From NCBI GenBank assembly GCA_900617105.1, contig UYFQ01000023.1:186001-250000 (forward strand): DNA of 64,000 bases, given 5' to 3'. Positions 42,385 to 45,674 of this stretch are shown piece after piece. Every line of letters begins with the position of its first letter. Within the stretch, counting starts at the first letter, position 1. This DNA is from Hydrurus foetidus. Taxonomy: Eukaryota. The notes below the pieces were generated by a model. It had not been told where the DNA came from and did no database searches. It saw only the letters and a program-made list of their open reading frames with translations. Made by a program: the position numbers and the translations under genes.

Positions 42385-42509
42385 AGGCCTCACTCACCCC
42401 TGCTTGCTCTACGCCTTTTCTATTACGGTGTCGTCACTCAATCTGAGAGAGTGTTTACGGCCCCTGAAGAAGCAAAGCAAGGAATGTTAAATATGGCAAG
42501 GCAAGACCT

Positions 42510-43788
42510 CGTATATTCAATCCGCCGAGCAGTTAAGCTTGAATTGTTTGATTGAACAGGCTGGGTCGGGAGAGGCTGGCAAGACTTTGAGCATTGAAGC
42601 TCGTGGGTCAGATAAGTCCCCCGATCCATTATTCGTTCCATCAAAGATCGAACGGTAACTTGGGCCGCTGCCTTGTGCTGATGAGCCCGCATACGAGGTG
42701 GATCATGAATGGTAACGAAGCTTCTGCATCAAGCATTTTGGCAACGACTGACGTGCATGTGGGTATCGATGTATCCAAGCTCAAACTTGATGTCGCACGC
42801 CTGCGGCATGGAAAGTTTCGAAGCAAGGTGTTCAGTAACAATGTTGCAGGGTTCAAAGCACTTGTAGCGTGGCTACTTGAAGATGGCGTGACGCTCAGCC
42901 AAGCGCACCTGTGTTTAGAAGCCACAGGCCCCTACAGCGAAGCATTGGCCGTTTGGCTGTGTGATGCTGGATGGCGAATCAGTGTGGTCAATCCAGCCCG
43001 TGTGAAGGGATTTGCTCAAAGCGAGCTGGCACGAAACAAGACTGACAAAGCAGACGCCGCCTTGATTGCACGGTTTTGCGCCGCGCTTGCGCCCGAACCA
43101 TGGTGCCCACCCAGCATGGCCATTCGCCAACTGCGCAGCTTGGTAGAGCGGCTGCAAGCGCTCAAAGACATGCACCAGCAAGAAGTCAACCGCATGGAAG
43201 CAGCTCATGCAACGGGCGACAAGTTAACGCAGACCTACATTCGCGAGCATGTGGTCTATCTGGAGGCCGCGATCAAGACACTGCAAAAGGCCATTGACGA
43301 CCACATTGCGGGCGAGCCTCAATTGCACAGTGATGCCCAGTTGCTCGCCAGTATCCCAGGCATAGGGGCAGTGACGCTTGCCAAAGTCATGGCTTATGCG
43401 GGCAATGTAGAGCGATTTACCAGTGCAAAGGCCCTCAGTGCTTTTGCCGGTGTATGCCCTCAGCAACGGCTGTCAGGCACCAGCGTAAAGGGGCGCAGCA
43501 TGATCAGCAGGCGTGGGCATGAGGATTTGCGCCGTTCGCTGTACATGCCTGGCATGGTGGCACTTCGTTACAACCCGCTGGTTCAGGAAATGGCGCTGCG
43601 CTTGAGAGCAAAAGGCATGGCCCCCAAGGCCATCATTGCTGCGGCGATGCATAAATTGCTGCATTTGATCTACGGCGTTTTGAAAACGCGTAAACCGTTT
43701 GATGCGAACTGGGCTAAAAATACCGCCACCTTGATGGCAGATTCCGTCATTTTTTCAGTCAGAACTGTTGACTTTCAAGACGGTATCT
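42510..43788 (+). mobile_element. IS110-family (IS621-like) insertion sequence, apparently complete
   Basis: DEDD recombinase; CT core at 42508-42509 and 43787-43788; ends ACGGTAT-CT / CT-CGTAT resemble the IS621 donor; no terminal inverted repeats. Confidence 0.9.
42518..42702 (+). ncRNA. Bridge RNA of the IS110 element (predicted; 5' end approximate)
   Basis: Target loop guides GCAAGACTT (42579-42587) and GGGTCAG (42605-42611); donor loop guides ACGGTAACT (42652-42660) and ATACGAG (42691-42697); flanking stems present. Confidence 0.85.
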
Positions 43789-43790
43789 GA
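42705..43790 (+). CDS. IS110-family recombinase (transposase)
   Basis: VGIDVSK, LEATG, KTDKADA (DEDD), SIPGIG, RLSGTS catalytic Ser; GAGGTGG SD. Confidence 0.95.
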   Translation: MNGNEASASSILATTDVHVGIDVSKLKLDVARLRHGKFRSKVFSNNVAGFKALVAWLLEDGVTLSQAHLCLEATGPYSEALAVWLCDAGWRISVVNPARVKGFAQSELARNKTDKADAALIARFCAALAPEPWCPPSMAIRQLRSLVERLQALKDMHQQEVNRMEAAHATGDKLTQTYIREHVVYLEAAIKTLQKAIDDHIAGEPQLHSDAQLLASIPGIGAVTLAKVMAYAGNVERFTSAKALSAFAGVCPQQRLSGTSVKGRSMISRRGHEDLRRSLYMPGMVALRYNPLVQEMALRLRAKGMAPKAIIAAAMHKLLHLIYGVLKTRKPFDANWAKNTATLMADSVIFSVRTVDFQDGI

Positions 43791-43841
43791 CCCTGGCTTT
43801 TCTGCACAAAAGCATTCCACAAAACTACAACTTTAAAACTA

Positions 43842-43862
43842 CCGCTTAACGCGGCGTTATCC
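43842..43862 (+). other. Right half of a relic attC-like site preceding the GNAT gene
   Basis: CCGCTTAACGCGGC-GTTATCC immediately before CTC-ATG; complementary GGGATAA at 44287-44293. Confidence 0.5.
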
Positions 43863-43865
43863 CTC

Positions 43866-44330
43866 ATGGAAGTGACCGTCTATCCCGCCACAGAAGAAGA
43901 GGTTCGCAGCGGCTACGTTGGCCGTCAACTACGCGGATTCAACTATGGCTTTGTGGGTGAATATCCAGAAGTGCAGTACATCCGCTTGAACGCTCGGGAC
44001 ATAGACGGTCAGGTGGTCGGAGGTCTTCGAGCAGTCGTGGCAATGTATTGGCTGCGCGTTGAGGTGCTCTGGGTCAGCGAAGGTTTTCGAGGAAATGGTA
44101 TCGGCTCTCGTCTTCTTTCTGAATGCGAGCACTTGGCAGTGACCATCGGTGCTAAGAACGCTGCGCTAGAAACTTTCGAATGGCAGGCGCCTAGCTTTTA
44201 TGAAAAACATGGGTATGAGGAAGCTGGTCGAATGGAGAATTACATTGGAGGCTTCTATCTCAGTATTCTGCGTAAACCGCTCGTCCGGGATAAAGCAGTG
44301 GTTCAATTCCGGCCAACTTCTCTCAACTGA
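43866..44330 (+). CDS. GNAT family N-acetyltransferase
   Basis: LWVSEGFRGNGIGSRLL acetyl-CoA motif, QAPSFYEKHGY. Confidence 0.9.
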   Translation: MEVTVYPATEEEVRSGYVGRQLRGFNYGFVGEYPEVQYIRLNARDIDGQVVGGLRAVVAMYWLRVEVLWVSEGFRGNGIGSRLLSECEHLAVTIGAKNAALETFEWQAPSFYEKHGYEEAGRMENYIGGFYLSILRKPLVRDKAVVQFRPTSLN

Positions 44331-44414
44331 TGTCGCTGGCGTATTTCTTTCTCATACCCGTCATTGCGAGGGGCAATTCAGGGTATGAGGATCGCCAACA
44401 CGTTCTGAGGGGGT

Positions 44415-45674
44415 TTACTGCTTGCCAATCTCGGTCAACAAGCGAGTCATCAGGTACAGGCGAGGCACGATGGAATCGACCTCGATGTACTCGTCTTTGG
44501 CGTGGTAGCCAAAGCCTGCTAAACCAAAGCTTTCCACCACGGCCGCTTTACCGGAACGGCCTGCGTAGCCCGCATCCGTGCCGCCGCCCGTCATGGGCAC
44601 CAGCTGCAAGGGGCGACCATCGAGTTCTGCGTAAATGGCTTGGGCTTGGGCTGCCAGTGCGCGGCCTTTGTCGTTGGCTACAAAAGAGGGGCGACCCACC
44701 ACCAATTTCACACTGGTTTGCGTATCGGGCACCAAGCGGGATTCGGCGATCTTGGCCTGCAACGCCGTCAGCAGTTTGGCTTCCGCACCGGGGATGGTGA
44801 TGCGCACATCGCCCGTGGCTTCGGCGGATTCAGGAATTTGGTTAACGACGCGTCCAGCCTTGGACAGCGTCCAGCTCAGTTGCACACCGGGAATGTCTTT
44901 GGCCACATCGCGCGTTTGCGTGATTTGGTGTGACAACTCGACCAAGGCATTGCGGCCCAACTCAGGTGCGGCACCTGCGTGTGACGTGCGGCCTTTGACC
45001 TCCAGCGTGGCACTGGCAATGCCCGCAGCCCCCAGCAGCAAAGCCTCGGTTTTGGCAACGGCCTTGGCTGCGGTGGGTTCGCACGAGAACACCACATCAT
45101 GCTGCTCTGCCAAGGTGGCAATCAGCTCACCAGAGTCGCGCGAGCCAACCTCTTCATCGGCATTGAACACCACCGTCAGCGTGGCAAAGTCGCGCCAACC
45201 GGTATCACGCAAAATTTTGAGCGAGTGCAAGATCACAGCGATACCGCCTTTGTCGTCCGCGATGCCAGGGCCGTAAATGCGGTTGCCTTCCACGCGGTAG
45301 GGCTGGCTGGTCAAAATACCGATTTGGTACACCGTGTCCATGTGCGCCATCATCATCACGCGCTTTTTGCCCGTGCCCTCAAAGCGACCGATCACGATGT
45401 CACCACCGCCTTCACGGGGGGATTTGACGCGCTCTGTCTTGGCTCCCATGGCTTGCAAACGCGCTTCGGTGAAAGCGGCCATTTTGGCCAAACCGGCGGG
45501 ATCACTGCTGCCCGACTCGATCATCACCATGTCACGCAGGCTGTCGATCACGGCGGGCTGGGCTTGCTCAGCGGCAGCCTTCAGGCGGGTATCGAGGGCG
45601 GCGTTGGCACTGGTAGCAAGCCCGGCAAGGGTCAGTGCGGCGATCAGGGTGGATGCGGTTTGACGCAGGTTCAT
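44415..45674 (-). CDS. Glutamate carboxypeptidase (M20, carboxypeptidase G2-like)
   Basis: Signal peptide, AHMDTV, GPGIADDKGG, DEE, GGGTDA. Confidence 0.88.
   Translation of the reverse strand: MNLRQTASTLIAALTLAGLATSANAALDTRLKAAAEQAQPAVIDSLRDMVMIESGSSDPAGLAKMAAFTEARLQAMGAKTERVKSPREGGGDIVIGRFEGTGKKRVMMMAHMDTVYQIGILTSQPYRVEGNRIYGPGIADDKGGIAVILHSLKILRDTGWRDFATLTVVFNADEEVGSRDSGELIATLAEQHDVVFSCEPTAAKAVAKTEALLLGAAGIASATLEVKGRTSHAGAAPELGRNALVELSHQITQTRDVAKDIPGVQLSWTLSKAGRVVNQIPESAEATGDVRITIPGAEAKLLTALQAKIAESRLVPDTQTSVKLVVGRPSFVANDKGRALAAQAQAIYAELDGRPLQLVPMTGGGTDAGYAGRSGKAAVVESFGLAGFGYHAKDEYIEVDSIVPRLYLMTRLLTEIGKQ

What the first reader, a model, noticed from the sequence alone, without database searches (positions are those of the whole stretch)
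42500..43795. IS110 element with a fully decodable bridge RNA (RNA-guided recombinase with its own target specificity)
Seen: the CT core is duplicated at 42508-42509 and 43787-43788. The reconstructed empty target is GCAAGAC-CT-GACCC and the circular donor junction is ACGGTAT-CT-CGTAT. The 195-bp non-coding left end holds all four guides in the expected order. Target loop: stem GGGTCGGG (42563-70) pairing CCCGATCC (42621-28, approx.), left guide GCAAGACTT (42579-87; one U:G wobble against the target), hairpin GAGC-ATTGAA-GCTC, right guide GGGTCAG (42605-11, exact reverse complement of CTGACCC). Donor loop: stem TCCATC/GGTGGA, left guide ACGGTAACT (42652-60; 8/9 match to the donor), GGGC/GCCC hairpin, right guide ATACGAG (42691-97, exact reverse complement of CTCGTAT). 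Known: this is the IS621 bridge-RNA architecture. Inference: an intact programmable recombinase ortholog with a different target and donor. The donor-loop stem also overlaps the recombinase SD (GAGGTGG), which could couple RNA folding to translation.
Basis: partly seen in the sequence, partly recalled or inferred. Interest (0 to 1): 0.9.

Follow-up and report, generated by a model that had tools for sequence, protein, structure and literature searches.

The report
RNA-guided transposon borrows target's stop codon
This is a jumping gene of a known RNA-guided type whose predicted guide RNA spells out its own landing site, and whose enzyme gene has no stop signal of its own but takes one from that landing site, so the free circular form would likely make a longer enzyme than the inserted form.

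Summary
Observation confirmed: a 1,279-bp IS621-type IS110 element with intact catalytic residues and a left-end bridge RNA whose four guides match its own target and donor. About five copies share these ends in one organism, an empty allele was seen, stems covary, and a retargeted relative changed guides and flanks together. That much is a new member of a known kind. The recombinase frame runs through the donor site, and its stop codon is core T plus the target's GA. All 120 listed homologues end there; 16 of 16 decoded right ends make a stop. In the circle the frame would continue into the bridge RNA, where it is open and in phase up to the left target guide in 16 of 17 elements (P 0.03 to 0.0008, by test). 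Host genes hit at their stop codon gain the same tail. Its function is untested; no RNA data were available.

The parts
42501..42507 (+). Left target GCAAGAC (host DNA; part of a TIR-type repeat arm)
   Evidence: other copies diverge just before 42501/42502
42508..42509 (+). Left CT core
42510..42514 (+). Right donor CGTAT (first bases of the element)
   Evidence: GTAT invariant in 18 of 18 aligned left ends
42512..42517 (+). -10 box TATATT of the promoter formed only in the circle
   Evidence: 17-nt spacer to the -35 box across the joined ends; function inferred from IS621
42509..42658 (+). Open frame T|CG TAT... (49 codons + TAA) that would extend the recombinase in the circle; overlaps 5' stem-loop, target loop and part of the left donor guide
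   Evidence: P0136 reads FQDGI-SY in frame
42530..42554 (+). 5' stem-loop of the bridge RNA
   Evidence: folds
42562..42629 (+). Target-binding loop; outer stem 42563-70/42620-27
   Evidence: 12 of 14 outer-stem pairs with compensatory change
42579..42587 (+). Left target guide GCAAGACTT (U at core position 8; first G may be the linker base)
   Evidence: A42573/G42578 motif places the guide start at 42580 by IS621 homology
42605..42613 (+). Right target guide GGGTCAG plus handshake guide AT
   Evidence: AT invariant in 18 of 18; complementary to donor positions 6-7
42632..42719 (+). Donor-binding loop; proximal stem 42646-49/42701-04, outer stem pairs with recombinase codons 2-5
42652..42660 (+). 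Left donor guide ACGGTAACT (mismatch at position 7)
42691..42699 (+). Right donor guide ATACGAG plus handshake guide GT
   Evidence: GT complementary to target positions 6-7 (AC)
42695..42701 (+). Shine-Dalgarno-like GAGGTGG overlapping guide, handshake and stem
   Evidence: sequence; function inferred
42705..43790 (+). IS110 recombinase, 361 aa; D22 E72 D114 D117 S257, wedge Y280 M281 M284; ends QDGI-stop
   Evidence: PF01548 + PF02371, NF033542 above cut-off, IS621 E 5e-77, residues
43768..43773 (+). -35 box TTGACT, inside the coding sequence
43780..43786 (+). Left donor ACGGTAT, inside the coding sequence (codons D-G-I)
43787..43788 (+). Right CT core
43788..43790 (+). Stop codon TGA = core T + first two target bases
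43789..43793 (+). Right target GACCC (host DNA)

Best explanation
This is an intact IS621-type IS110 element whose left-end guides match its target and donor and whose recombinase gene ends in a stop codon made by the target, and it likely moves by bridge-RNA-guided recombination of a circular form into AAGAC-CT-GACCC repeats. Shown here: ends, copies, empty allele, catalytic residues, covarying RNA stems, target-made stop. Inferred from IS621: joining the ends creates TTGACT-17-TATATT, which would transcribe a bridge RNA of about 195 nt (about 42524-42719); the tetramer would cut the top strands after CT, i.e. inside the TGA; the 7-nt right guides and both matched handshake guides would bias it strongly toward insertion. 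The clade aims at terminal inverted repeats of TIRYT elements, a multicopy and mostly intergenic target. Because the donor site lies inside the recombinase frame, recombination would swap C-termini: inserted copies end QDGI-stop, circles would add 26-78 residues read from the bridge-RNA gene (49 here), and a host gene hit at its stop codon gains the same tail. I take the open, in-phase tail to be under weak selection for ribosome passage up to the left target guide (about 55% likely), not for its amino acids.
For: Guides and shuffles. Domains and residues. Element depth 219/243 against 45-47 in flanks, contigs branching at both ends, one contig joining 42507 to 43787 in another study. 12 of 14 coding differences from the collapsed copy in X1 are synonymous. 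19 of 27 stem pairs with compensatory change. L003/L004: same left end at two sites. L157: guides GTGAGGC/GGGTTAG with flanks GTGAGGC-CT-AACCC, stop TAA. 120 of 120 listed homologues end xDGI, QGGI or QDGN; 16 of 16 right ends found without a target-containing pattern give a stop, 15 TGA and 1 TAA; 5 decodable outgroups have their own stop. Target repeat: 40 sites against 0 control in G207; Y1_Tnp gene between inverted copies, ending KYKT-TGA in the repeat. Frame tests. Host proteins with the tail, 13 of 13 hits.
Against: No expression or activity data; no circle junction among the contigs of the four runs laid, although contigs drop rare forms. The empty allele rests on one contig of depth 2 laid at 88% likeness. 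No Rfam family matches (2 chance-level hits). L165 breaks the frame (stop at codon 19) yet keeps an open recombinase. The inheritance-aware frame test gives only P 0.03. Tail codon positions vary about equally (0.36, 0.42, 0.42). The repeat's TGA is not enriched as a gene stop (frame open for 100 codons or more at 8 of 51 sites, against 13 and 8 in the other frames), and this copy has only 6 open codons upstream. L017, L020, L165 and L166 match their left guide at 5 of 7 or fewer positions. No second repeat arm or free target lies in the window.
Confidence: 0.85

Rival explanations
1. Ordinary IS621-like element made compact by loss of its own stop codon; the open left-end frame is an inherited accident and has no function.
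For: L165 has lost the frame; the conservative test is P 0.03; tail lengths range 18-78 codons; L230 already has its stop only 6 nt before the core, so further shortening is easy.
Against: 1 of 25 distinct stop positions lies in frame 0 against 6 of 23 in the downstream control region; core-to-guide distance is 70, 73, 82 or 85 nt in 16 of 17; 11 of 17 stop within or right after the left target guide.
Confidence: 0.4
2. The open frame serves host read-through, not the recombinase: elements landing on a host stop codon let the host ribosome run on to the left target guide, which would keep read-through transcription going or melt the target loop and favour donor-loop-only excision.
For: 13 of 13 longer hits are host proteins ending in the tail; L166 sits at the end of an EAL gene; a TIRYT gene ends in the target TGA; IS621 excision needs read-through transcription and can use the donor loop alone (PMC13626964).
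Against: The tail search can only find read-through cases; most repeat sites are not gene stops; this copy and 6 other left ends have 11 or fewer open codons upstream, not counting L167 at its contig edge.
Confidence: 0.3
3. The tail is a functional peptide (a stability or directionality tag) on the circle-made recombinase, as with attP inside the repressor gene of integration-dependent phages.
For: Read-through is obligatory in every circle; synonymous share highest in frame 0 (0.162 against 0.056 and 0.116); P0136 shows the in-frame junction; precedent in PMC3694055.
Against: Little amino-acid conservation beyond what the RNA stem imposes; no third-position excess; variable C-terminal ends; no ssrA-like ending seen (by eye, motif recalled).
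Confidence: 0.2
4. Dead or chance look-alike: the guides are coincidental or the copy is inactive.
For: No activity shown; one mismatch and one wobble next to the cores.
Against: both imperfections are clade-wide and TT left cores occur in L005, L019, L023 as the U predicts.
Confidence: 0.03

Closest known systems
IS621 (E. coli) and ISCro4/IS622 bridge recombinases; PMC11208160, PMC11208158, PMC13626964, 10.1101/2025.05.14.653916; PDB 8wt6, 9t56
   Same: 46% identical recombinase, DEDD + Ser, wedge YM..M, CT cores, left-end RNA with 5' stem-loop, two loops, four A-N4-G motifs, handshake guides, junction promoter, repeat target.
   Different: No non-coding right end and no stop codon of its own (IS621 has about 105 nt); contiguous 7-nt right guides; left target guide probably 1 nt shorter; LTG U8 and LDG A7 imperfections; donor stem runs over the start codon; target is a TIRYT repeat, not a GTAG-type REP.
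Sister IS110 rows in Durrant 2024 Supplementary Data 1-2
   Same: Donor ACGGTATCTCGTAT (12 + 2 occurrences) and one RNA with GGGTCAGATAGG and the same right donor guide.
   Different: Those rows have a perfect left donor guide and other left targets; GCAAGACCTGAC and QDGI were not found in the held text (files 3, 4, 6 cut, file 2 unreadable).
TIRYT/TIRtron terminal inverted repeats, GGGGWSAS consensus (PMC3733652; 10.1101/279083)
   Same: Target read on the other strand is (G)GGGTCAG; found flanking a Y1_Tnp + HTH gene.
   Different: These are the landing sites, not the element; a search for IS110 with TIRYT gave only the classification paper.
Integration-dependent immunity phages (attP inside repressor gene; PMC3694055)
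   Same: Recombination site inside a reading frame, so free and integrated states encode different C-termini.
   Different: There a tyrosine integrase removes a known degradation tag from a repressor; here the recombinase itself is affected, the tail is read from a guide-RNA gene, and no tag function is shown.
ISEc21 / IS1111 seekRNA elements (PMC11187229)
   Same: RNA-guided, circle junction promoter, natural retargeting, some target other mobile elements or attC.
   Different: Different subgroup; IS1111 RNA lies downstream with subterminal repeats.

Membership tests
IS110 family | PF01548 + PF02371 recombinase of 300-460 aa | tested here: met
   361 aa, both domains above cut-off; NF033542 225 bits, cut-off 140
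IS110 family | DEDD motif and catalytic serine | tested here: met
   D22 E72 D114 D117 S257 align with IS621 D11 E60 D102 D105 S241
IS110 family | Core dinucleotide at both ends and a scarless empty site | tested here: met
   joint 42507-43787 in one contig of run X5
IS110 family | Circular intermediate | tested here: inconclusive
   no backward joint in 4 runs of contigs; one relative's protein spans a donor-type junction (P0136)
IS621-type bridge RNA system | RNA in left end with 5' stem-loop, target loop, donor loop | tested here: met
   folds; 94.8% cells paired, 19 of 27 pairs compensatory, slid controls 25-42% (structure taken from this alignment's own consensus)
IS621-type bridge RNA system | Four guides matching target and donor, covarying with flanks | tested here: met
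IS621-type bridge RNA system | Flipped A and syn G motifs; handshake guides | tested here: met
   A/G at 42573/78, 42598/603, 42645/50, 42684/89; AT and GT handshakes
IS621-type bridge RNA system | Sigma-70 promoter formed across joined ends | tested here: met
   TTGACT-17-TATATT; sequence only
IS621-type bridge RNA system | Non-coding right end between stop codon and core | tested here: not met
   frame runs through the donor; stop is made with the target. This is a described layout of IS621, not a mechanistic requirement, and is the reason for filing it as a variant
IS621-type bridge RNA system | RNA expressed, bound by recombinase, programmable recombination | not testable with these tools
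   no RNA holder listed
IS1111 group (seekRNA) | Non-coding RNA region downstream of the recombinase | tested here: not met
   no downstream non-coding region at all
TIRYT terminal inverted repeat (the target) | GGGGWSAS motif in inverted repeats flanking a Y1 + HTH gene | tested here: met
   in relatives' genomes: L161 (NF047646 73 bits, under its cut-off of 80). The window's own site reads GGGTCAG with one G fewer and has no partner arm in the window

The most novel reading that the evidence does not exclude
A clade of bridge recombinases in which the guide-RNA gene is also coding: recombination inside the stop codon switches the enzyme between a short inserted form and a tailed circle form, and ribosomes running through the 5' stem-loop to the left target guide switch the target loop off, so translation sets the direction (excision or insertion). 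The need for a stop would also confine natural retargeting to T-GA, T-AA or T-AG sites, steering the clade to TIRYT repeats and cassette stop codons.
Probability: 0.25. Interest if true: 0.8.

Novelty: new variant of a known kind. Interest (0 to 1): 0.5.

Why it matters
A decodable bridge RNA alone is routine since 2024. This clade adds three things. First, a built-in link between recombination state and translation, which gives a direct test of how IS110 elements set excision against insertion: change one codon in the tail or put a stop before the core. Second, a possible constraint on natural reprogramming, since the target must complete a stop codon. Third, a practical point for ortholog mining: the annotated protein is the inserted form only, the RNA's donor stem extends into the coding sequence, and the wild-type RNA already has the extended right guides and matched handshakes that were engineered into IS621. 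It also links IS110 to TIRYT repeats as landing sites, a mobile element parasitising another.

Tried and rejected
No whole genome is held for the window, so copies were counted from run contigs only. Rfam: nothing real. blastn of the left end against plasmids: no match. No RNA holder listed; this is no evidence on expression. Flanks of the other copies in X1/X2 were seen only as merged loose ends and stay unresolved. Pattern scans gave few elements: 1 known element in 60 viral stretches, 2 in 66 (L147 and L157), none new in 67 or 22, none new in 151, 6 and 401 genomes. Protein scans: 8 of 401 and 3 of 401 genomes, none new in 2. No DNA was obtained for the 70-82% identical subclade. Idea that the tail frame is in phase with the TAA in the left donor guide: rejected, frames there are mixed. 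Idea that repeat sites are usually host stop codons: rejected. L233 and L234 ends could not be decoded and were dropped from the outgroup count. No structure or complex was predicted.

Full report
1. Observation. All coordinates hold: cores at 42508-09 and 43787-88, target GCAAGAC-CT-GACCC, donor ACGGTAT-CT-CGTAT, guides at 42579-87, 42605-11, 42652-60 and 42691-97. None of 20,000 shuffles held all four words. The frame 42705-43790 encodes a 361-aa protein with PF01548 and PF02371, above the NF033542 cut-off, whose only 2 PDB matches are IS621 and ISCro4; it is 46% identical to IS621 with D22, E72, D114, D117, S257 and the wedge Y280, M281, M284. Joining the ends gives TTGACT-17-TATATT.

2. 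Copies and empty site. Four runs of contigs were laid at 88% likeness. In X1 and X2 (one study, flanks identical to the window, possibly its source) the element has depth 219 and 243 against 45-47, about five copies; contigs branch before 42501/42502 and a few bases behind the right core, so other copies share the ends and most of the left target. The collapsed copy differs at 15 of 1,264 bases, none in a guide, and 12 of the 14 coding changes are synonymous. X3 holds a copy with another right flank beginning GACCC. X5 has one contig (depth 2, 70 bases on the short side) joining 42507 to 43787, the predicted empty allele. No circle joint was listed.

3. RNA structure. An alignment of 18 left ends (window, 16 relatives, IS621; L004 and L167 left out) gives 94.8% paired cells and 19 of 27 pairs with compensatory change, against 25-42% for slid controls (the structure came from this alignment's consensus). 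The four flipped-A/syn-G motifs of IS621 (PMC11208158) are present. They place the donor stem at GATC/GATC, paired 4/4 in 15 of 18 rows and 3/4 in 3, and extended by pairing with codons 2-5. Handshake guides AT and GT complement donor and target positions 6-7, the arrangement that favours insertion in IS621.

4. Target. The right target guide is GGGTCAG in 17 of 19 left ends. In 15 relatives the left guide matches the flank at 11, 8, 14, 14, 13, 14, 14 of 15 per position (L166 is one base out of register). L157 changed both guides and both flanks together. The motif AAGACYTGACCC occurs 40 times in G207 with 0 control matches, and 7, 4, 2 and 0 times in four other carriers. In L161 two inverted copies flank a Y1_Tnp + HTH gene, the TIRtron layout with GGGGWSAS consensus (PMC3733652; 10.1101/279083). 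So the specificity is clade-wide, and repeat targeting is typical of IS110. The donor 14-mer is already in Durrant 2024's supplement.

5. The recombinase frame passes through the -35 box and left donor and stops at TGA 43788-90, one base from the element and two from the target. IS621 cuts the top strand exactly there. All 120 listed homologues (of 655 at E 1e-100 among 7,998 scored) end xDGI (117), QGGI (1) or QDGN (2). Of 16 right ends found without a target-containing pattern, 15 give TGA and the retargeted L157 gives TAA (L012, L013, L015 excluded as found by such a pattern; duplicates L016, L031, L032, L075, L147, L159, L164, L221, L288 dropped). Five of 7 outgroup elements could be decoded and all have their own stop, 6 to about 105 nt before the core.

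6. The tail. In the circle the frame continues into the left end: 49 codons here, 18-78 in relatives. The core-to-guide distance is 70, 73, 82 or 85 nt in 16 of 17 and 71 in L165; distinct stop positions number 1, 11 and 12 in the three frames, P 0.0008 if positions are independent. With 13 representatives they number 1, 11, 13 against 6, 9, 8 downstream, and a test that keeps inherited bases gives 4.35 expected, 1 seen, P 0.03. Eleven of 17 stop in or right after the left target guide. Protein-level selection is weak. A profile of 12 tails found 13 longer proteins, all unrelated host proteins ending in the tail, 12 after an Ala codon and 1 after Lys-Thr. A full scan gave 37 hits; of 36 new ones 3 long proteins were skipped and 33 short ones carry the tail, one directly after FQDGI. 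These searches see only read-through cases. Against a host-driven reading, the repeat's TGA closes a frame of 100 codons or more at 8 of 51 sites, no more than the control frames (13 and 8; 2 of 53 sites dropped for short flank), and this copy has 6 open codons upstream.

7. Mechanism. Shown: ends, copies, empty allele, residues, covariation, target-made stop, open tail frame. Inferred from IS621: circle, junction promoter, RNA, cleavage and handshake bias. Speculative: a role of the tail. IS621 excision needs read-through transcription and works with the donor loop alone (PMC13626964; 10.64898/2026.08.31.748434), so a ribosome ending at the left target guide could plausibly gate the target loop. 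The nearest logic is attP inside a phage repressor gene (PMC3694055).

8. Literature seen. PMC11208160: parts 1-2 of 14, passages, supplement searches (files 3, 4, 6 cut, file 2 unreadable). PMC11208158: parts 1-2 of 9, passages. PMC13626964: parts 1-2 of 8, passages. 10.1101/2025.05.14.653916: part 1 of 8, passages, no supplement. 10.64898/2026.08.31.748434: part 1 of 6. Passages only: PMC11187229, 10.1101/2024.04.26.591405, 10.1101/279083, PMC3733652, PMC3694055, 10.64898/2026.08.14.744561, 10.64898/2026.03.19.712850. Searches for a target-supplied IS110 stop codon or a TIRYT target (listings, plus term look-ups) found no description. ISfinder and subscription papers were not searchable. From recall, not from a call: stop codons completed by target DNA are known in some other IS families, and RYYYAAC is the attC inverse core.

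9. Verdict. Real; an IS110 element that works like IS621 but lacks a right end. New variant of a known kind, interest 0.5. The most novel reading (translation-gated direction switch) has probability 0.25 and interest 0.8.

Noticed in passing
L157 (viral contig) and proteins P0121, P0123-P0133: A sister subclade lands on GCC-TAA-C at the end of small cassette-like genes (GNAT, MAPEG, HD); this fits the attC inverse core RYYYAAC (motif recalled). It may be an IS110-group attC-targeting lineage that borrows TAA.
   Followed up: partly
window 42658 (LDG position 7) and 42586 (LTG position 8): Both imperfections are clade-wide. U8 with G in the right guide would accept CT and TT cores with one wobble each; TT left cores occur in L005, L019, L023. 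P0112 and P0120 end QDGN, i.e. their donor matches the A in the guide.
   Followed up: partly
window 42419-44403: Relatives in run X5 join 42380 or 42418 to 44404-44415, lacking the target site, the element and the GNAT gene 43866-44330: a small accessory island between rhodanese and M20 peptidase genes.
   Followed up: no
window 44294-44350: A repeat of about 57 bp at about 3.5 times flank depth in X1/X2, also present with other flanks in X3.
   Followed up: no
window 42465-42509: A single-copy contig elsewhere in X1/X2 matches these 45 bases (4 differences) and stops matching at the core: probably an unoccupied target of the same repeat family.
   Followed up: no
window 43732-43757: Terminator-like hairpin with U tract inside the 14-20 codon C-terminal insertion that marks the 361-367 aa subclade, just before the -35 box.
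   Followed up: no
L166 1-1245: Insertion at the end of an EAL-domain gene with a one-base register shift against the guide.
   Followed up: partly
P0136: Reads a right-end junction in one frame, then FQDGI-SY: a donor-type junction next to another copy's right end, perhaps a tandem or half-match insertion.
   Followed up: no
L008, L015, L157, L233: Remnants: internal deletions (L008, L157), lost left junction (L015), 71-bp duplication of the left-end start (L233).
   Followed up: no
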